A stretch of 25,188 nucleotides of DNA from positions 1-25,188 of the IMG/VR virus record IMGVR_UViG_2547132281_000006. One strand, 5' to 3'. Source of the DNA: a virus (Duplodnaviria; Heunggongvirae; Uroviricota; Caudoviricetes). A model generated the notes under the pieces. That model saw only the letters and a program-made list of their open reading frames with translations, did not search any database and was not told the origin of the DNA. Each line of letters starts with the position of its first letter. The first letter of the stretch is position 1. A program made the translations under genes and the position numbers. Shown here one piece after another: positions 14,181-23,770 of the stretch.

Positions 14181-14214
14181 GGAGTTTACTCACATCTGAC
14201 AAAATCAATATAAA

Positions 14215-14236
14215 CAGCCCCTCCGGAGAGGGGCTG
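14215..14236 (-). terminator. GC-rich hairpin downstream of the tRNA cluster
   Basis: 9-bp stem CAGCCCCTC / GAGGGGCTG with 4-nt loop; on the minus strand followed by TTTATATTGATTTTG. Confidence 0.4.
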
Positions 14237-14471
14237 GAGAGTGGCGCTATGTGCCATTGCATGGTGCCGGGTGCCTCCCGGTGAATTCAGTACCAGCACC
14301 TGAATCCGCGATTATCCCATATACCTACTCGCTGATTGCCCCTCCGCACAGGGGGATTCACCATGCCAGTTTCTTTTAACAAACTCCCCGCAAACCAGAC
14401 AACAGTCAACCGCCTAAATTGTGAGACATTTAAAAAAAAGGCCCACAAAAGCGAGCCAGGGAAAATAAGTG

Positions 14472-14548
14472 TGGCGCGTTGTACTGGATTCGAACCAGTG
14501 ACCGATTGCTTAGAAGGCAATTGCTCTGTCCGGCTGAGCTAACAACGC
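14472..14548 (-). tRNA. tRNA-Arg (anticodon TCT)
   Basis: Reverse complement folds as a cloverleaf: acceptor GCGTTGT/ACAACGC, D-arm GCTC..GAGC, anticodon loop CTTCTAA, T-arm ACTGG-TTCGAAT-CCAGT, encoded CCA. Confidence 0.85.
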
Positions 14549-14561
14549 ATGATGCAGATAA

Positions 14562-14638
14562 TGGACCGCCATCGGGGACTTGAACCCCGCGCAACCAGCT
14601 TCGAAGGCTGGCGCTCTTTCCTGATGAGCTAATGGCGG
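14562..14638 (-). tRNA. tRNA-Arg (anticodon TCG)
   Basis: Acceptor CCGCCAT/ATGGCGG, D-arm GCTC..GAGC, anticodon stem CCAGC/GCTGG with loop CTTCGAA, T-arm CGGGG-TTCAAGT-CCCCG, encoded CCA. Confidence 0.8.
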
Positions 14639-14645
14639 TATGTGA

Positions 14646-14721
14646 TGGTGGCCCTTGCTGGATTTGAACCAGCGACCTGGCGATTATGAGTCGCTCGCTC
14701 TCACCACTGAGCTAAAGGGCC
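14646..14721 (-). tRNA. tRNA with CAT anticodon (Ile2/lysidine type, ileX/ileZ-like, or Met)
   Basis: Sequence GGCCCTTTAGCTCAGTGGTGAGAGCGAGCGACTCATAATCGCCAGGTCGCTGGTTCAAATCCAGCAAGGGCCACCA closely resembles recalled E. coli ileX. Confidence 0.8.
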
Positions 14722-16394: not shown

Positions 16395-17216
16395 CTATCG
16401 CGTTACCCTCTTTAACTGCCGCTCCGCCCATGCCTCTTCAATGTCAAACCGAACCACCAACGTATCGTAAAAGCGTTTCACTGATTTTTTCCACGTATCA
16501 AGCGTGATAGCACTCGTCACTTTGCATATGGCATTAAATGCCTCCGTTGATGGCAGCCTTTCACAGCCACGACCACCACAACGCTGGCAGTCTCTGATAA
16601 CAGGCATACCACGTTTTACCGACTCTTCACGATGAATGGCGACACCACGCCCACGGCAATCCTTACAGGCGGTGGAAACCTCACCCTTTCCGCCACACTC
16701 CGGACAGGCAACTTTTACCACCTCCCTGACTTTTTTCCATTCTTCCCAGTAAGACGAATACACACCTTTCGTACACTTTGCCCATACCGGCGGCTTACCA
16801 TCCGGATACTGGACCTTGTTTGTAAAAACCTCGCTTTCAATAAATTTTTTTCCGTGACAGCAGGGGCACTGTTTTTTGCTCGCCGCGCTACGGGCATAAT
16901 CTTCAAACGCATACGAAGCCATAATACGCATCACTGCCGGTTTTATTTCTGCCGGGAGTTTTCTTAACGCCGCCACGCGATCACACCGACTGAGTGCATA
17001 TTCTGTCAGCAATTCTGTTGCCCGCTCTCTGTCATTCATACTAATGCCCATTTTACCAAGGAACGCAGAAAACCCCATCTCAGCCCGATTCTGTGTCATG
17101 CCCTGCGCGGCCATCACATCAGTGATACTCAGCGCATCTTTCGACGTTGAGGCCGATGCATCAGTCAGGCCGGGGGATTTTGGGGAGTAGTATTTCGGTA
17201 AATCTTCCAGTTTCAT
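16395..17216 (-). CDS. Q: Late-gene antiterminator Q (lambda-type, enlarged zinc-binding region)
   Basis: 273 aa; N-terminus (YYSPKSP...TDVMAAQGM), middle (ASYAFEDYARSAA) and C-terminus (RFYDTLVV...KRVTR) parallel recalled lambda Q; four CxxC motifs; start overlaps the rusA stop (ATGA). Confidence 0.8.
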   Translation of the reverse strand: MKLEDLPKYYSPKSPGLTDASASTSKDALSITDVMAAQGMTQNRAEMGFSAFLGKMGISMNDRERATELLTEYALSRCDRVAALRKLPAEIKPAVMRIMASYAFEDYARSAASKKQCPCCHGKKFIESEVFTNKVQYPDGKPPVWAKCTKGVYSSYWEEWKKVREVVKVACPECGGKGEVSTACKDCRGRGVAIHREESVKRGMPVIRDCQRCGGRGCERLPSTEAFNAICKVTSAITLDTWKKSVKRFYDTLVVRFDIEEAWAERQLKRVTR

Positions 17217-17587
17217 TTTTTGACCTGCCCTTCAAGCATTATGGGGTAAATCTTCACCCCCAGACGTCCACCAGATACTGGCTGACCACGAACGATATTG
17301 ATTTCATCAAACTGCTCATCGTCCATTAACACTCCCGCATGCGTCAGCGCATCCAGCGGTGCTTTCAGGATATTGTCCAGGTCGCGACGACGCTTATCCG
17401 GTGGCTCTGCAATCACCTTTATCGCCAGCCTTCCGGACAGGCTTAATTTCAGCCGCTGCTGGCGAACAATAAGCGCCACTGCCCGGCGATAACGCTCCCC
17501 GGCTTTTGATACAAAATATGTGCTGCCACGGCGTCGCCAGTAAGTGTTCACCGTCGGCGGGTAAGGTAAAACCAAATCTATGAGCAT
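17213..17587 (-). CDS. rusA: Holliday junction resolvase RusA
   Basis: 124 aa; LPYPPTVNTYW N-terminus and DKRRRDLDNILKAPLDALTHAGVLMDDEQF catalytic block typical of RusA. Confidence 0.85.
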   Translation of the reverse strand: MLIDLVLPYPPTVNTYWRRRGSTYFVSKAGERYRRAVALIVRQQRLKLSLSGRLAIKVIAEPPDKRRRDLDNILKAPLDALTHAGVLMDDEQFDEINIVRGQPVSGGRLGVKIYPIMLEGQVKK

Positions 17588-17831
17588 CAGTCACCTCTTT
17601 TAACAGAGCCTGCATTTTTTCAACAGCATCAGGGGTGTCTTTATCCAGCCAACGGAAAATTTTCTGGGTATTACGGGCCAGGGCTTCCGGATGGCTGTCG
17701 TCATACAGTTCCGGGAACGTCATTCCCAGCTCGAAATACGCTTTGGTAATTTTCGCAGCCGGTACTTTTTCGCCGTCCGGATGCGCCCAGGCATTCATTG
17801 CCATGCGGATGTGTTCATGCTTGATTTTCAT
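17394..17831 (-). CDS. Hypothetical protein downstream of the Cro-like gene (position analogous to ydaT of Rac); 3' end overlaps rusA
   Basis: 145-aa ORF; first ~100 aa look protein-like; last ~45 aa overlap rusA in another frame (possible lost stop or frameshift). Confidence 0.4.
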   Translation of the reverse strand: MKIKHEHIRMAMNAWAHPDGEKVPAAKITKAYFELGMTFPELYDDSHPEALARNTQKIFRWLDKDTPDAVEKMQALLKEVTDAHRFGFTLPADGEHLLATPWQHIFCIKSRGALSPGSGAYCSPAAAEIKPVRKAGDKGDCRATG

Positions 17832-18090
17832 GAATCACCCCCGCCTCTGGTTGTGTGTTAGCCTGATACTCGACAGGTAAGCCGTCGGTTGGGTTGGGAT
17901 AAGTACTGCCATCAATCTCGTGCGGAGTTACTATCCAGCCTGTTGCTTCGCACCAGCGTAAAATTTTTTTCCCCGTAAGTTTCGCCCGTCCGGTAATGAC
18001 ATGGCTTACCATCCCTTGGGTTACCCCAACAATTTCAGCAAAATGCTTCTGAGTTATACCGGAATGATGCAAATATTCTCCAAGATTCAT
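17815..18090 (-). CDS. Cro/YdaS/DicC-like HTH regulator, divergent from the repressor
   Basis: 91 aa; helix-turn-helix region GITQKHFAEIVGVTQGMVSHVITG; divergent from the repressor gene across an operator-containing intergenic region. Confidence 0.65.
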   Translation of the reverse strand: MNLGEYLHHSGITQKHFAEIVGVTQGMVSHVITGRAKLTGKKILRWCEATGWIVTPHEIDGSTYPNPTDGLPVEYQANTQPEAGVIHENQA

Positions 18091-18122
18091 TGTTCACCTC
18101 ATGTGATGTCATCACGATCATT

Positions 18123-18162
18123 AATAGCATTGTTATTTTTAAAAGTAAATAGCATCACTATT
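18123..18162. promoter_or_regulatory. Operator pair OR-like: two 15-bp palindromic sites (AATAG-N5-CTATT type), 25 bp apart
   Basis: AATAGCATTGTTATT (18123-18137) and AATAGCATCACTATT (18148-18162) in the divergent cro-like/repressor intergenic region; also palindrome TGATGTCATCA at 18104-18114. Confidence 0.5.
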
Positions 18163-18197
18163 TCAAAGAGATTAATAATCTTATTAGAATTGAAGGT

Positions 18198-18698
18198 ATG
18201 AAAAGAAAATCCCTGTCAGAGATCGACCTGCAAGCCGCCCAGAGACTGAAAGAAATCTGGACGGCGAAAAAAAATCAACTAGGGTTAACCCAAGAGCGTG
18301 CGGCAGAAATTCTGGGATTTTCGACACAGGGAGCTGTAAGCCATTATCTAAATGGTCAGACACCTTTAAATCTTGAGGCTGTTATCAAGTTCGCAGGGTT
18401 GCTGCAAGTTCCTCCCGAGTCAATCAGACCAGATATGGCCGAGTTGTTACAAATTGTAAGGATGTATCCCCAAGAATCTGGGGAGGACAATGTTGTCACT
18501 ATATCTGCAGATATGGAACAATCGGAAAACGAACTTCCGTTTAATATAGACCCCATGGAGCGGGATTTGCTCCAGACGTTCAGGGCTTTCCCCAAAGAAG
18601 ATAAAGAGAAAATGCTTAAGGAAATGAAGGAGAAAAAAGAATCAATTGAAGAAATCGTTGCGCGATGGCTAGCTGCGCAAAAGGGTCGTCGCGCCTAA
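18198..18698 (+). CDS. DicA-like prophage repressor (HTH, no LexA-type peptidase domain)
   Basis: 166 aa; HTH LGLTQERAAEILGFSTQGAVSHYLNG; C-terminal region resembles recalled DicA; no S24 peptidase motifs. Confidence 0.75.
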   Translation: MKRKSLSEIDLQAAQRLKEIWTAKKNQLGLTQERAAEILGFSTQGAVSHYLNGQTPLNLEAVIKFAGLLQVPPESIRPDMAELLQIVRMYPQESGEDNVVTISADMEQSENELPFNIDPMERDLLQTFRAFPKEDKEKMLKEMKEKKESIEEIVARWLAAQKGRRA

Positions 18699-18715
18699 TC
18701 TGAGGAGGTAAAAAC

Positions 18716-18907
18716 ATGAGTACAGCCCTTTCCCCGATAATTTCTGAATTTGAAACAGTCGAACAAGAAAACAGCTATAACGAATGGTTGCGAACCAAAG
18801 TGGCAGCAAGCCTCTCAGATCCCCGTCCTGCAATTCCACATGACGAAGTAATGGCTGAAATGGAAAACCTTATTGCTCAATTAGCTGCAACGAACAGGAG
18901 TGAGTAA
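18716..18907 (+). CDS. Type II antitoxin (ParD-like) paired with the downstream ParE/RelE toxin
   Basis: 63 aa; GAGGAGG SD; stop overlaps the toxin start (TAATG); acidic C-terminus. Confidence 0.65.
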   Translation: MSTALSPIISEFETVEQENSYNEWLRTKVAASLSDPRPAIPHDEVMAEMENLIAQLAATNRSE

Positions 18908-19197
18908 TGCTGCCCATTTTATGGCTACCTTCTGCACGTGATGATTTACGTCAGATCGTAGCCTATATTGCTAAGGAAAACCCTCCCGCTGCACGTAGAC
19001 TAAAAATACGCATTGAAACATCAGTTTTGTCACTTACTGAACACCCTTATCTGTACCCACCGAGCGAAAGAGTTCCAAGTCTTCGTGAGATAGTGACTCA
19101 TCCTAACTACATAATACTTTACCGAGTAACAGCATCTAACATCGAGATCGTAAATGTAGTTCACTCACGAAGACAGTATCCAAACAAAACCTGTTAA
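18907..19197 (+). CDS. ParE/RelE-family type II toxin
   Basis: 96 aa; LPSARDDL...YIILYRV...IEIVNVVHSRRQY pattern typical of ParE/RelE toxins. Confidence 0.8.
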   Translation: MLPILWLPSARDDLRQIVAYIAKENPPAARRLKIRIETSVLSLTEHPYLYPPSERVPSLREIVTHPNYIILYRVTASNIEIVNVVHSRRQYPNKTC

Positions 19198-19210
19198 TCC
19201 TTCCTGTCAA

Positions 19211-19235
19211 CAACCACCTTCGGGTGGTTTTTTTC
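19211..19235 (+). terminator. Intrinsic terminator ending the repressor/toxin-antitoxin operon
   Basis: AACCACC-TTCG-GGTGGTT followed by TTTTTTT. Confidence 0.7.
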
Positions 19236-19245
19236 TTGCCACGAT

Positions 19246-19285
19246 AATAGCACTGCTATTTACATAATTAAATAGTAGTGGTATT
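19246..19285. promoter_or_regulatory. Second operator pair with the same motif and spacing (OL-like), upstream of the ydfA-dicF-dicB operon
   Basis: AATAGCACTGCTATT (19246-19260, perfect palindrome) and AATAGTAGTGGTATT (19271-19285), again 25 bp apart. Confidence 0.5.
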
Positions 19286-19466
19286 GTTCATTCATCAACC
19301 CACCCCGCCCCACAGAACGCCAGGCAATACTTCGAGTTACCCGGCAGTGGTCAGGGGTTAAGTAGCCAGCCCGAGGCGTAAGAACATGACGGCAGGGTTC
19401 AACTTTAATAACTATGCAGCAGGTTTTTGTTCCGCTACCCCGGCGTTAAGGGGAAATGAGGTCAGC

Positions 19467-19619
19467 ATGGATACTATCGAGCTTGGCAACAACGAATCTC
19501 TGGTATGCGGCGTGTTTCCCAACCAGGACGGCACGTTTACCGCGATGACATATACCAGAAGCAAAACGTTTAAAACTGAAGCTGGCGCGCGTCGCTGGTT
19601 AACCAGAAACACTGACTGA
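19467..19619 (+). CDS. YdfA-like small protein
   Basis: 50 aa from internal ATG 19467 (GAGG SD); MDTIELGNNESLVCGVFPNQDGTFTAMTYTRSKTFKTE resembles recalled Qin YdfA. Confidence 0.6.
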   Translation: MDTIELGNNESLVCGVFPNQDGTFTAMTYTRSKTFKTEAGARRWLTRNTD

Positions 19620-20602: not shown

Positions 20603-20655
20603 TTTCTGGTGACTTTTGGCGGTATCAGTTTTACTCCGTGACTGCTCTGCCGCCC
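20603..20655 (+). ncRNA. dicF: DicF small RNA (ftsZ-targeting sRNA of Qin-type prophages)
   Basis: TTTCTGGTGACTTTTGGCGGTATCAGTTTTACTCCGTGACTGCTCTGCCGCCC followed by TTTTT matches recalled K-12 DicF with ~2 substitutions; lies immediately upstream of the dicB-like gene. Confidence 0.8.
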
Positions 20656-21298: not shown

Positions 21299-23770
21299 AT
21301 GAGTAAAGTCTTTATTTGCGCCGCCATTCCGGACGAACAGGCAATAAAGGAAGAAGGTGCCGTCGCTGTAGCCACTGCCATTGAAGCCGGTGATGAACGT
21401 CGCGCCCGCGCAAAATTTCACTGGCAATTCCTGGAACATTATCCGGCTGCTCAGGACTGCGCTTATAAATTTCTTGTCTGCGAGGATAAACCCGGTATAC
21501 CCCGCCCTGCCCTCGATTCCTGGGATGCTGAATATATGCAGGAAAACCGCTGGGATGAGGAATCCGCTTCCTTTATTCCGGTCGAATCAGAATCCGATCC
21601 GATGAACGTCAATTTTGACAAGCTGTCCCTTGAAGTACAGAACGCGGTCCTGGTTAAGTTCGACACATGTGAAAACATCACCGTTGATATGGTTATTAGC
21701 GCACAGGAATTGTTGCAGGAAGACATGGCAACATTCGACGGACATATCGTTGAAGCGTTGATGAAAATGCCAGAAGTTAACGCCATGTATCCGGAGCTTA
21801 AGCTGCATGCCATCGGGTGGGTTAAGCATAAATGTAAGCCTGGTGCCAAATGGCCCGAAATTCAGGCAGAGATGCGCATCTGGAAAAAACGTCGCGAAGG
21901 TGAACGCAAGGAAACCGGAAAATACACGTCTGTTGTTGATCTCGCCCGCGCCAGAACCAATCAACAGCACAGTGAAAATTCAACAGGAAAAATCAGCCCG
22001 GTCATTGCTGCCATTCATCGCGAATACAAGCAGACATGGAAAACACTGGATGACGAACTGGCCTACGCTCTCTGGCCTGGTGATGTGGATGCCGGAAACA
22101 TTGACGGCAGCATCCATCGCTGGGCAAAAAATGAAGTTATCGACAACGACCGCGAAGACTGGAAGCGTATCTCGGCATCAATGCGCAAACAGCCTGATGC
22201 CCTTCGCTACGACCGCCAGACTATTTTTGGCCTTGTCCGTGAACGTCCGATCGACATTCACAAAGACCCTGTGGCACTGAACAAATACATTACTGAATAC
22301 CTGACTACAAAGGGCGTGTTTGAAGATGAAGGAAGAAATCAGAGCGCAACTGATACTCTCTCGTCGCCAGTACCAGAAACTGATGCAGTGGAAACGGCAA
22401 TTCCGGACAACGAAAAAACCGAATGCAAAGTGGAAGTCGAACCATCTGTAGAGCGTGAGGGGCCGTTCTACTTCCTCTTCACCGACAAGGATGGCGAAAA
22501 ATACGGTCGCGCAAACAAACTTTCTGGTCTGGATAAGGCGCTGGCTGCCGGGGCTACTGAAATCACGAAAGAAGAATATTTCGCCCGCAAAAACAGTACA
22601 TACTCAGGTTCACAACAAAATACTGGTGTATCTGACACGATCGCACAACCAGAGCCGGTAAAAGTTACCGCTGACGAAGTAAACAAAATTATGCAGGCAG
22701 CCAATATCAGCCAGCCTGACGCCAATAAGTTGCTTGCTGTATCACGTGGTGAATTTGTTGCAGGGATTAGCGACCCGAATGATCCGAAATGGGTGAAGGG
22801 GATTGAAACCCGCGATTCAGTGAATCAGAACCAGCAAGAAACGGAAAAGAACGGCCAGAAAGCGGAACAAAACAGCCCAAATGCGTTACAAAACGAGCCA
22901 GAAACGAAACAACCTGAACCAGTAGCGCAACAGGAACCGGAAAAAGTCTGCACCGCCTGCGGTCAGACCGGCGGCGGCAACTGCCCTGATTGTGGCGCGG
23001 TGATGGGCGACGCAACATACCAGGAAACATTCGATGAAGAGTATCAGGTTGAAGTTCAGGAAGATGATCCGGAGAAAATGGAAGGCGCTGAACATCCACA
23101 CAAGGAGAATGCTGGCAGCGCTCAGGACCACGCCAGCGATAGTGAAACTGGCGAGACGGCAGATCCCTTAATTACGGTGAACGGTCATCACGTTATCACA
23201 TCCACCAGCAGGACGTGTGACCATCTAATGATCGACCTTGAAACCATGGGAAAAAATCCTGATGCCCCGATCATCTCAATAGGTGCAATATTTTTCGATC
23301 CGCAAACCGGAGATATGGGACCGGAATTTAGTAAGACTATCGATCTGGAAACTGCTGGCGGAGTCATTGATCGGGACACCATTAAATGGTGGCTTAAGCA
23401 ATCACGCGAAGCGCAATCTGCCATTATGACCGATGAAATCCCGTTAGATGATGCACTGTTACAATTGCGGGAATTTATCGACGAAAACTCCGGTGAATTT
23501 TTTGTTCAGGTCTGGGGAAATGGAGCCAACTTCGACAACACGATTTTGCGCCGTTCATACGAACGGCAGGGGATCCCCTGCCCGTGGCGTTACTACAACG
23601 ATCGCGATGTACGCACAATCGTTGGGCTGGGGAAAGCCATAGACTTCGATGCCAGAACGGCTATTCCATTCGAAGGTGAGCGCCATAATGCACTTGATGA
23701 CGCCCGTTACCAGGCAAAATACGTTTCAGCTATCTGGCAAAAACTGATCCCGAGTCAGGCTGATTTTTAA
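21299..23770 (+). CDS. Large early protein with C-terminal DnaQ-like DEDDh 3'-5' exonuclease domain
   Basis: 823 aa; C-terminal motifs MIDLETMG (Exo I), VWGNGANFDNTIL (Exo II), HNALDDARYQAKY (Exo III); CxxC-N7-CxxC (CTACGQTGGGNCPDCG); acidic Q/E/P-rich linker. Confidence 0.75.
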   Translation: MSKVFICAAIPDEQAIKEEGAVAVATAIEAGDERRARAKFHWQFLEHYPAAQDCAYKFLVCEDKPGIPRPALDSWDAEYMQENRWDEESASFIPVESESDPMNVNFDKLSLEVQNAVLVKFDTCENITVDMVISAQELLQEDMATFDGHIVEALMKMPEVNAMYPELKLHAIGWVKHKCKPGAKWPEIQAEMRIWKKRREGERKETGKYTSVVDLARARTNQQHSENSTGKISPVIAAIHREYKQTWKTLDDELAYALWPGDVDAGNIDGSIHRWAKNEVIDNDREDWKRISASMRKQPDALRYDRQTIFGLVRERPIDIHKDPVALNKYITEYLTTKGVFEDEGRNQSATDTLSSPVPETDAVETAIPDNEKTECKVEVEPSVEREGPFYFLFTDKDGEKYGRANKLSGLDKALAAGATEITKEEYFARKNSTYSGSQQNTGVSDTIAQPEPVKVTADEVNKIMQAANISQPDANKLLAVSRGEFVAGISDPNDPKWVKGIETRDSVNQNQQETEKNGQKAEQNSPNALQNEPETKQPEPVAQQEPEKVCTACGQTGGGNCPDCGAVMGDATYQETFDEEYQVEVQEDDPEKMEGAEHPHKENAGSAQDHASDSETGETADPLITVNGHHVITSTSRTCDHLMIDLETMGKNPDAPIISIGAIFFDPQTGDMGPEFSKTIDLETAGGVIDRDTIKWWLKQSREAQSAIMTDEIPLDDALLQLREFIDENSGEFFVQVWGNGANFDNTILRRSYERQGIPCPWRYYNDRDVRTIVGLGKAIDFDARTAIPFEGERHNALDDARYQAKYVSAIWQKLIPSQADF

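What the first reader, a model, noticed from the sequence alone, without database searches (positions are those of the whole stretch)
18123..19285. One operator motif used at two promoters with identical 25-bp spacing
Seen: four 15-bp sites of the form AATAG-N5-CTATT occur as two pairs. Pair 1 (18123-18137, 18148-18162) is in the divergent cro-like/repressor intergenic region; pair 2 (19246-19260, 19271-19285) is just after the toxin-antitoxin terminator, upstream of the ydfA/dicF/dicB operon. Within each pair the sites are 25 bp apart. Established knowledge: DicA represses both dicC and the dicB operon. Inference: the repressor probably binds both pairs cooperatively, OR/OL style.
Basis: partly seen in the sequence, partly recalled or inferred. 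Interest (0 to 1): 0.5.

Follow-up and report, generated by a model that had tools for sequence, protein, structure and literature searches.

The report
Prophage repressor operators at PR and PL
The repeated AATAG-N5-CTATT sites are very probably the operators of a lambda-like prophage immunity switch; they sit on the two outward-facing early promoters that flank the repressor gene and its toxin-antitoxin cargo, a real but ordinary arrangement already described for phages lambda and HK620 and for the prophages Qin and CP-933P.

Summary
The four sites are at the stated coordinates and 25 bp apart within each pair. Only two match AATAG-N5-CTATT exactly; the other two miss by one base. Four clustered sites are far beyond chance (5 hits at ≤1 mismatch against 0.54 expected).

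The fuller consensus is a 7-1-7 palindrome, AATAGCAnTGCTATT. A weak third site (18171-18185) was missed.

The locus is not dicA/dicC. It is a lambdoid immunity region:
- a Cro/YdaS-like gene on the minus strand;
- a 166-aa repressor whose head is homologous to the lambda CI N-terminal domain and whose tail is of the PaaR/DicA type;
- paaA-parE toxin-antitoxin genes, a terminator, then the promoter of the ydfA-dicF-dicB operon.

Each pair overlaps the -35 and -10 elements of an outward promoter (PR, PL). A 17-bp promoter spacer forces the 25-bp site spacing.

In every relative of the repressor head examined, the same sites lie at -75/-50/-27 from the repressor ATG. A second pair lies beyond whatever cargo follows the repressor.

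Phage HK620 carries annotated OR1-3/OL1-3 of nearly the same form and spacing.

The OR/OL reading is supported in principle, but binding, cooperativity and looping were not tested. This is a new member of a known kind, of low interest.

The parts
18123..18137 (.). OR1: operator AATAGCATTGTTATT (17-bp form 18122-18138). It overlaps the -10 element of the leftward PR-like promoter.
   Evidence: The site lies at -75 from the repressor ATG in 7 of 8 non-redundant relatives with a listed OR1.
18148..18162 (.). OR2: operator AATAGCATCACTATT. It overlaps the -35 element of PR and abuts the -35 element of the PRM-like promoter. Its centre is about -42/-43 from the predicted PRM start.
18171..18185 (.). 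Candidate OR3: ATTAATAATCTTATT, three mismatches to the pattern. It lies over the spacer and -10 element of PRM. Relatives carry ATTAGTAAAACTATT or ATTAGCAATACTATT at the same position.
   Evidence: The site is at -27/-26 in 8 of 10 non-redundant loci.
19246..19260. OL2 in lambda/HK620 naming (labelled OL1 in the table): AATAGCACTGCTATT, a perfect 7-1-7 palindrome. It overlaps the -35 element of the PL-like promoter.
19271..19285 (.). OL1 in lambda/HK620 naming: AATAGTAGTGGTATT. It overlaps the -10 element of the PL-like promoter.
18121..18149 (-). PR-like promoter for the cro-like/ydaT operon: -35 TTTACT (18149..18144), 17-bp spacer, -10 TATTAA (18126..18121).
   Evidence: Read by eye; the automatic scan rejects it because the last base of the -10 element is A. 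The geometry is the same as PL (28 of 42 bases identical between the two cassettes). Relatives carry TTGACT-17-TATTAA at this place.
18162..18190 (+). PRM-like promoter TTCAAA-17-TAGAAT. The -10 element ends 7 nt before the repressor ATG at 18198, which predicts a leaderless mRNA.
   Evidence: The -10-to-ATG distance is 6-7 nt in the relatives read, and no Shine-Dalgarno sequence is conserved in them. HK620 cI has the same layout. paaR2 was shown to be leaderless (PMC8630535).
19259..19287 (+). PL-like promoter TTTACA-17-TATTGT for the ydfA-dicF-dicB operon.
   Evidence: It is conserved as TTGAC/TTTAC ... TATTGT in relatives.
18198..18698 (+). 166-aa repressor. Its head is homologous to the lambda CI N-terminal domain, with recognition helix TQGAVSHYLNG. 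Its tail is of the PaaR/DicA type. It has no S24 peptidase domain.
17815..18090 (-). Cro/YdaS-like 91-aa HTH protein, with recognition helix TQGMVSHVITG.
18716..19197 (+). paaA-like antitoxin gene (18716-18907) and parE-like toxin gene (18907-19197). They are probably co-transcribed with the repressor gene.
   Evidence: PaaA2 family E 1e-21, ParE_toxin family E 7e-18.
19212..19236 (+). Intrinsic terminator that ends the repressor-TA operon.
   Evidence: A terminator is seen at this place in most of the relatives' OL flanks shown.
17601..17831 (-). Remnant of ydaT (CII-like). About the first 77 codons remain, and homology to an intact relative ends at 17600/17601.
19467..19619 (+). ydfA-like gene (DUF1391), the first gene downstream of PL.
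20604..20655 (+). DicF sRNA, inside the PL-driven operon.
   Evidence: Rfam RF00039, 75.8 bits.

Best explanation
**What the sites are.** They are the operators of a lambdoid prophage immunity switch. The 166-aa repressor has a lambda-CI/HK620-CI-type DNA-binding head joined to a short PaaR/DicA-type tail. Dimers of it would bind the 15-17-bp dyad AATAGCAnTGCTATT.

**OR side.** OR1 (18123) and OR2 (18148) cover the -10 and -35 elements of the leftward promoter PR, shutting off the cro-like/ydaT operon. OR2 is centred about 42 bp upstream of the leaderless repressor transcript, so it is placed to activate PRM as in lambda. The weak OR3 (18171) lies over PRM and would give autorepression at high repressor levels.

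**OL side.** OL2 (19246) and OL1 (19271) cover the -35 and -10 elements of the rightward promoter PL, shutting off ydfA-dicF-dicB and the genes beyond.

**Other players.** The repressor gene and the paaA-parE cargo lie between the two outward promoters, in the place of lambda cI-rexAB. The Cro-like protein has a near-identical recognition helix and probably binds the same sites with the opposite preference.

**Spacing.** The 25-bp spacing follows from promoter geometry. The -35 element starts at operator position 14 of one site and the -10 element at position 12 of the next, with a 17-bp spacer between them. The spacing is also close to lambda's 24/23 bp, which supports pairwise cooperativity.

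**What is shown and what is inferred.**
- Shown: the sites, their significance, their overlap with promoter-like hexamers, their conservation with the repressor head, and the homologies.
- Inferred: binding, the order of site occupancy, cooperativity, OR-OL looping over 1.1 kb, and leaderless translation.
For: **Significance and symmetry.** establish significance. The consensus of 29 unique sites from 10 loci is AATAGCAATGCTATT, with A1, T3, A4 and T12, A13, T15 invariant.

**Conservation from protein to motif.**
- In relatives whose repressor head is 67-94% identical, sites sit at -75/-50/-27 from the repressor ATG. These relatives come from E. coli, E. albertii, Shigella, Salmonella, Citrobacter, Yersinia and Rouxiella.
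- A second pair lies 0.5-3 kb downstream, beyond whichever cargo is present: PaaA/ParE, HigBA, HipA_2+DUF3037, or none.
- Almost no hits occur elsewhere in those loci.

**Reciprocal test, from motif to protein.** The exact double-site pattern finds 39 stretches in viral contigs. Twenty-six of them encode a lambda-CI-NTD-like protein in the DNA held, and in these the recognition helix mostly begins (T/S)QG.

**Promoters.** PL and PRM were found by scan. PR has the same cassette design as PL.

**Repressor and Cro.**
- The repressor head matches the lambda CI NTD in the PDB at E about 1e-9.
- It is 46% identical to the head of HK620 cI.
- The recognition helices of the Cro-like protein and the repressor are alike.
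- The N-terminal half of Cro changes together with the operator type.

**Described precedents.**
- HK620's GenBank annotation lists OR1-3/OL1-3 as AAATAC-N5-GTATTT, with 25/24/25-bp spacing and the same PRM and pL layout.
- For CP-933P, EMSA and footprints show PaaR2 and YdaS binding OR, reporter fusions show repression of PR, PRM and PL (the OL sites were identified by sequence), PaaR2 octamerises, and paaR2 is leaderless (PMC8630535).
- In Qin, DicA acts at dicCp and dicBp (PMC10448788).
Against: - There are no binding data for this protein or these sites.
- PR fails the automatic promoter scan because its -10 element is TATTAA.
- OR3 in the window has three mismatches and may be non-functional.
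- No OL3 was found.
- The C-terminal tail was compared with a PaaR paralogue from O157:H7 (47% identity) and with DicA (27%), not with PaaR2 itself. Its oligomeric state is unknown, and no solved structure matches it.
- A few archaeal and betaproteobacterial HTH proteins carry the same TQGAVSHYL helix but have no such sites nearby, so the helix alone does not predict the motif.
- The prophage is defective (ydaT truncated, replication genes lost), so parts of the switch may be relics.
Confidence: 0.85

Rival explanations
1. The sites are DicA operators, and the locus is a dicA/dicC immunity region as in K-12 Qin.
For: The downstream operon is ydfA-dicF-dicB, as in Qin. The repressor tail resembles the DicA tail weakly (27% identity over 51 aa, pairwise E 2e-5). 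DicA represses dicCp and dicBp through operators at both places (PMC10448788).
Against: The DNA-binding head does not align to DicA. The K-12 dicC-dicA and dicBp regions carry TGTTAG...CTAACA-type repeats and have no AATAG-N5-CTATT hits at one mismatch or fewer. The Cro-like protein is 21% identical to DicC. The repressor is followed by paaA-parE, which Qin lacks.
Confidence: 0.03
2. The repeats are only duplicated promoter sequence: PR and PL are copies of one promoter cassette, with AT-rich UP-like flanks. They are not protein-binding operators.
For: The PR and PL cassettes share 28 of 42 bases, and the promoter hexamers sit inside the repeats. The 25-bp spacing is fully explained by a 17-bp promoter spacer.
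Against: Each site keeps dyad symmetry, and the arm that lies outside the hexamers is conserved too. A third site sits in a different promoter context, PRM. The site sequence changes when the repressor and Cro heads change: ACAGTTTTTTATTGT in the O157 paralogue locus, TGTTAG...CTAACA-type repeats in Qin, and AATAC-N5-GTATT in HK620. The promoter design stays the same in these loci.
Confidence: 0.04
3. The sites are bound mainly by the toxin-antitoxin complex (PaaA-ParE), as in classical type II TA autoregulation, or only by the Cro-like protein, and not by the 166-aa repressor.
For: In most type II TA operons the antitoxin-toxin complex binds palindromes at the operon's own promoter. The Cro-like protein has a matching recognition helix.
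Against: The sites persist unchanged in relatives where paaA-parE is replaced by HigBA or HipA_2/DUF3037, or is absent. The PaaA match covers only the ParE-binding family PF21217, with no DNA-binding domain. In CP-933P the regulator is PaaR2 (PMC8630535). The second pair controls a promoter outside the TA operon. Binding by Cro is expected in addition to repressor binding, not in place of it.
Confidence: 0.05

Closest known systems
Phage HK620 immunity region (GenBank AF335538: cI, cro, OR1-3, OL1-3, pR, pL)
   Same: The operators are 17-bp dyads of almost the same sequence: AAATAC-N5-GTATTT in HK620 and AAATAG-N5-CTATTT here. Spacing is OR1-OR2 25 bp, OR2-OR3 24 bp (23 here) and OL2-OL1 25 bp. 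The operators are embedded in the -35 element (TTTACA) and the -10 element (TATTxT) of pL and pR. In both, the PRM -10 element TAGAAT lies 7 nt before the ATG. The cI head is 46% identical, with helix TQGAVGHYLNG against TQGAVSHYLNG here.
   Different: Positions 5 and 11 are C/G in HK620 and G/C here, so the two are probably heteroimmune. HK620 cI has a LexA-type S24 peptidase domain, whereas this repressor has a short PaaR/DicA-type tail. HK620 lists an OL3, and none is seen here. The cargo after cI differs (hkaS against paaA-parE).
CP-933P PaaR2-PaaA2-ParE2 / YdaS-YdaT immunity region of E. coli O157:H7 (Jurenas et al. 2021, PMC8630535)
   Same: The gene order is the same: cro-like/ydaT divergent from a repressor-paaA-parE operon, then a PL-type promoter with operators like those at OR. 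The repressor is CI-like, is translated from a leaderless mRNA, lacks a cleavable domain, and shares the conserved C-terminal tail. It represses PR, PRM and PL, and PaaR2 octamerises.
   Different: The DNA-binding head and the operators are different. Half-sites in CP-933P are GTTTAGTAA, and the O157 paralogue read here has ACAGTTTTTTATTGT. Four inverted repeats and three operators are reported at OR in CP-933P, against two strong sites and one weak site here.
Phage lambda CI / OR-OL
   Same: The N-terminal domain is homologous (38% identity; PDB match E about 1e-9). The operators are dyads of odd length, spaced 24/23 bp apart. OR2 lies about -42 from PRM, cI is leaderless, outward PR and PL flank cI plus its cargo, and the third site at OR is weak.
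   Different: The operator sequence differs. There is no S24 C-terminal domain, so RecA-mediated cleavage is not expected. There are two OL sites, not three. The OR-OL distance is 1.1 kb against 2.3-2.4 kb in lambda (from memory).
Qin prophage DicA/DicC with dicBp (E. coli K-12)
   Same: The same downstream operon (ydfA-dicF-dicB) is repressed from a PL-like promoter. The repressor is short and non-cleavable, with a similar C-terminal tail. Operators lie at both dicCp and dicBp.
   Different: The HTH head is unrelated and the operators differ. There are no TA genes between the repressor gene and PL.

Membership tests
Lambdoid OR/OL operator system (lambda/HK620 type) | Multiple dyad-symmetric sites of one consensus lie in the divergent repressor-cro gap, overlapping PR and PRM. 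| tested here: met
   There are two strong sites and one weak site at 18123, 18148 and 18171. They overlap predicted PR and PRM.
Lambdoid OR/OL operator system (lambda/HK620 type) | A second set of the same sites overlaps an outward promoter on the far side of the repressor gene (PL). | tested here: met
   The sites at 19246 and 19271 overlap TTTACA-17-TATTGT. The arrangement is conserved in relatives whatever the cargo.
Lambdoid OR/OL operator system (lambda/HK620 type) | Operator sequence co-varies with the repressor and Cro DNA-binding domains (immunity specificity). | tested here: met
   The motif is kept in all loci with this head, and it differs in loci with other heads: the O157 paralogue, Qin, LESphi2 and L020.
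Lambdoid OR/OL operator system (lambda/HK620 type) | The repressor binds the sites, cooperatively and with OR-OL looping. | not testable with these tools
   This needs EMSA or footprinting, determination of oligomeric state, and looping assays.
Lambda CI / LexA-like (S24) phage repressors | N-terminal HTH domain homologous to the lambda CI NTD. | tested here: met
   phmmer against the PDB aligns residues 2-90 to lambda CI 3-88, E 1.5e-9. tblastn to lambda cI gives 38% identity.
Lambda CI / LexA-like (S24) phage repressors | C-terminal S24 peptidase domain that allows RecA-stimulated self-cleavage. | tested here: not met
   Pfam finds only HTH_3 and HTH_31. The protein is 166 aa, and its tail aligns to the PaaR and DicA tails instead.
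PaaR-PaaA-ParE three-component TA / PaaR-type repressors | An HTH regulator gene lies directly upstream of paaA and parE on the same strand. | tested here: met
   PaaA2 (PF21217) E 1e-21 and ParE_toxin E 7e-18. The gaps between genes are 17 nt and an overlap of 1 nt.
PaaR-PaaA-ParE three-component TA / PaaR-type repressors | The regulator is homologous to PaaR2. | tested here: inconclusive
   Only the C-terminal 76 residues align (87 columns with an 11-column gap), at 47% identity, and the comparison was with a PaaR paralogue of O157:H7. The HTH head is unrelated. PaaR2 itself was not retrieved.
PaaR-PaaA-ParE three-component TA / PaaR-type repressors | Leaderless repressor mRNA and octamer formation. 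| not testable with these tools
   A leaderless start is predicted from the distance between the -10 element and the ATG. Oligomeric state is unknown.
DicA/DicC (Qin) immunity | The repressor DNA-binding domain and operators are of the DicA type. | tested here: not met

The most novel reading that the evidence does not exclude
This repressor may belong to a modular class of non-cleavable lambdoid repressors. In this class a short conserved PaaR/DicA-type oligomerisation tail carries interchangeable DNA-binding heads. The head here is of the lambda/HK620 type, and the O157 PaaR paralogue has an unrelated one. Proteins of 240-255 aa carry both heads in tandem, which could give dual immunity. In this reading the OR-OL loop encloses an exchangeable toxin-antitoxin or defence cargo slot (ParE, HigB, HipA-like) whose expression is set by the switch. 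None of this has been shown for this head-and-operator type.
Probability: 0.3. Interest if true: 0.45.

Novelty: new member of a known kind. Interest (0 to 1): 0.22.

Why it matters
It defines the operator code (AATAGCAnTGCTATT) and the promoter-operator layout of one immunity type. That type is present in about 1% of complete E. coli genomes (71 of 5426). It controls a ParE toxin-antitoxin pair and the DicF/DicB cell-division inhibitors, so the sites predict when these host-affecting genes switch on. The result also corrects the gene naming (PaaR-type, not DicA). It gives an easy test case for how a one-base-pair change in an operator (G5/C11 against C5/G11 in HK620) separates immunities. It does not change the general understanding of lambdoid switches.

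Tried and rejected
- **Protein search with the tail alone.** This was meant to map which heads are attached to the tail. It returned only fragments and was not informative.
- **PDB search with the tail.** No meaningful match.
- **Literature search for the motif strings.** It returned only primer-type hits. I found no paper describing this operator, but subscription journals are not covered.
- **Third OL site.** The sequence 25 bp upstream of 19246 is the terminator T-run, and nothing lies downstream.
- **Palindrome GTGATGTCATCAC (18103-18115) as an extra operator.** It is not conserved in close relatives, so I rejected it as part of the system.
- **Operators for the second head in tandem-HTH relatives.** No ACAGTTTTTTATTGT-type sites in L012, L014 or L017.
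- **A one-residue recognition code.** I considered Ser against Gly in the helix explaining G5 against C5. Viral loci with TQGAVGH helices still have AATAG sites, so I rejected this.
- **The 'terminator-like' hairpin at 19251-19280.** It is only the right arm of one operator pairing with the left arm of the next.
- **The actual PaaR2 sequence.** I did not retrieve it. The O157 locus fetched (L001) is a paralogue with other operators.
Full report
**Observation.**
- Two match AATAG-N5-CTATT exactly: 18148-18162 (AATAGCATCACTATT) and 19246-19260 (AATAGCACTGCTATT).
- Two miss by one base: 18123-18137 (AATAGCATTGTTATT) and 19271-19285 (AATAGTAGTGGTATT).
- Start-to-start spacing is 25 bp in both pairs.

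The sites are well beyond chance.
- Exact matches number 2 against 0.01 expected.
- Matches with at most one mismatch number 5 against 0.54 expected, and none of 100 shuffles reached 5.
- With two mismatches allowed the pattern falls to background.
- The fifth one-mismatch hit (23278) is a lone site inside the exonuclease ORF and is probably chance.

The fuller consensus is a 7-1-7 palindrome, AATAGCAnTGCTATT. The site at 19246 matches it perfectly.

**What the genes are.** Pfam results and the annotation of a nearly identical E. coli locus give the following layout.
- 17815-18090 (minus strand) encodes a 91-aa Cro/YdaS-like HTH protein.
- A YdaT (CII-like) remnant follows it.
- 18198-18698 encodes the 166-aa HTH repressor.
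- 18716-18907 encodes a PaaA2-family antitoxin and 18907-19197 a ParE toxin.
- A terminator lies at 19212-19229.
- The ydfA-like gene, DicF and dicB come next.

This is therefore a paaR-paaA-parE-type three-gene operon inside a lambdoid immunity region. That arrangement was characterised in prophage CP-933P (PMC8630535). It is not dicA/dicC.
- K-12 DicA shares only a weak match to the C-terminal tail (27% identity).
- The Qin operators are TGTTAG...CTAACA-type repeats.

**The repressor is a mosaic.**
- Residues 2-90 are homologous to the lambda CI N-terminal domain (PDB phmmer E about 1e-9).
- This head is 38% identical to lambda cI and 46% to HK620 cI. It is 52% identical to the LexA-type CI of some Stx2 phages.
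- The last 76 residues align at 47% identity (87 alignment columns including an 11-column gap) to the tail of a PaaR paralogue from O157:H7. That paralogue has an unrelated HTH head.
- There is no S24 peptidase domain, so RecA-mediated cleavage is not expected.

**Promoters and geometry.**
- The scan finds PL, TTTACA-17-TATTGT, at 19259-19287.
- It also finds a PRM-like promoter, TTCAAA-17-TAGAAT, at 18162-18190.
- The PRM -10 element ends 7 nt before the repressor ATG, and no Shine-Dalgarno sequence is conserved in relatives. This predicts a leaderless mRNA, as shown for paaR2 (PMC8630535) and known for lambda cI.
- On the minus strand, PR reads TTTACT (18149..18144)-17-TATTAA (18126..18121). 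The scan rejects it only because the -10 element ends in A.

PR and PL have identical geometry. The -35 element begins at operator position 14 of the promoter-distal site. The -10 element begins at position 12 of the proximal site. A 17-bp spacer therefore gives exactly 25 bp between site starts. This explains the identical spacing without invoking cooperativity.

The two cassettes share 28 of 42 bases. OR2 is centred at 18155, about -42/-43 from the predicted PRM start, which is the position of lambda OR2 (established knowledge).

A weak third site, ATTAATAATCTTATT (18171-18185), lies over PRM and corresponds to OR3.

**Comparative test, from protein to motif.** I fetched loci encoding relatives of the repressor. 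They come from E. coli, E. albertii, Shigella, Salmonella, Citrobacter, Yersinia, Rouxiella and metagenomes.
- Wherever the head is about 67% identical or more, sites of this form sit at -75, -50 and -27 from the true ATG.
- A second pair lies 0.5-3 kb downstream, immediately beyond whatever follows the repressor gene. That is PaaA/ParE in most loci, HigB/HigA in Salmonella, HipA_2+DUF3037 in L012, and nothing in L009 and L010.
- All hits with at most one mismatch in L003-L015 (4.4-5.8 kb each) fall in these two clusters. The few lone hits elsewhere are in the window and L002 (the exonuclease ORF), L018, L021 and L024.
- Twenty-nine unique sites give the consensus AATAGCAATGCTATT, with positions 1, 3, 4 and 12, 13, 15 invariant.
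- Spacing is 24-25 bp for OR1-OR2, 23-24 bp for OR2-OR3 and 24-27 bp for the OL pair.

The operator therefore follows the repressor and Cro heads, not the toxin-antitoxin genes.

The Cro-like proteins of these loci share the helix QGMVSHV, or QGY(V/I)SH in the two most distant. The O157 paralogue and DicC differ in that helix. The helices of the Cro-like protein and the repressor are alike, TQGMVSHVITG and TQGAVSHYLNG. That fits binding to shared operators.

**Reciprocal test, from motif to protein.** The exact 40-bp double-site pattern has 20 specified bases. By a rough estimate, fewer than one chance match is expected in the collection.
- It finds 39 stretches in IMG/VR.
- Twenty-six of them encode a lambda-CI-NTD-like protein within the DNA held.
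- Several stretches are from high-GC hosts.
- In nearly all of the 26 the recognition helix begins (T/S)QG, even at 25-44% overall identity.
- Relatives with other helices lack the motif: TQATVS in L020, QSTIS in L021 and SQTAIS in LESphi2.

One caveat applies. A few archaeal and betaproteobacterial HTH proteins with TQGAVSHYL have no such sites nearby.

**Comparison with what is known.**
- **HK620.** The GenBank record annotates OR1-3 and OL1-3 as 17-bp AAATAC-N5-GTATTT. Spacing is OR1-OR2 25 bp, OR2-OR3 24 bp and OL2-OL1 25 bp. It has the same TTTACA...TATTxT pL and the same TAGAAT + 7 nt + ATG at cI. The window differs mainly at positions 5 and 11 (G/C in place of C/G) and in the repressor's C-terminal part.
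- **CP-933P.** EMSA and footprints show PaaR2 and YdaS binding OR, and reporters show repression of PR, PRM and a PL whose operators resemble OR. PaaR2 forms octamers in solution.
- **The O157 paralogue (L001).** It shows the same cassette design with other half-sites, ACAGTTTTTTATTGT, at both OR and PL.
- **Qin.** Operators are reported at both dicCp and dicBp.

**Verdict.** The OR/OL interpretation is right in principle. The DicA label is wrong, one site was missed, and the 25-bp spacing is mostly promoter geometry. Binding, cooperativity and looping remain inferences. This is a new immunity specificity within a well-known kind of system, and it is of low general interest.

Noticed in passing
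L012 2501-3235, L014 2501-3268, L017 4471-5223 (relatives, not the window): Some relatives are 240-255-aa repressors with two HTH heads in tandem, followed by the shared tail. The first head is the window's lambda-like type and the second is the type found in the O157 PaaR paralogue. Their loci carry AATAG-type operators but no operators of the second head's type in the DNA held. They might confer dual immunity.
   Followed up: partly
Between the repressor gene and OL: window 18716-19197; L007 3112-3839; L012 3287-4860; L009 and L010 empty: The interval between the repressor gene and the OL/PL cassette is an exchangeable cargo slot. It holds PaaA/ParE, HigB/HigA, HipA_2+DUF3037 or nothing, and the OR-OL distance varies from 0.5 to 3 kb.
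   Followed up: partly
window 17394-17831 (junction at 17600/17601): The ydaT (CII-like) gene is cut after about 77 codons and runs on into the rusA region. Compared with an otherwise 99.5%-identical E. coli locus, the replication genes are missing. The prophage is therefore defective.
   Followed up: partly
window 18103-18115: A perfect 13-bp palindrome, GTGATGTCATCAC, lies at about the predicted start of the PR transcript. It is not conserved in close relatives, and its function is unknown.
   Followed up: partly
window 23278-23292: A lone one-mismatch copy of the motif (AATAGGTGCAATATT) lies inside the 823-aa exonuclease ORF. It is also present in the near-identical locus L002. It is probably chance, since 0.54 such hits are expected per window.
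   Followed up: no
window 19251-19280: The scan reports a 12-pair 'terminator-like' hairpin. It is an artefact of the right arm of one operator pairing with the left arm of the next.
   Followed up: yes
window 14475-14721 (minus strand), 14206-14395, 1090-1288: Rfam finds three tRNA genes and an STnc100 sRNA downstream of the Q antiterminator gene (16395-17216) on the minus strand, and an IS009 RNA match near the left end of the window.
   Followed up: no
L026 (phage Lyz12581Vzw) 3310-5267: In this Stx-type phage a SAM-dependent methyltransferase and a BsuBI-type restriction endonuclease occupy the slot just after cI. Its cI head is 52% identical to the window's, and one exact AATAG-N5-CTATT site lies at -53.
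   Followed up: no
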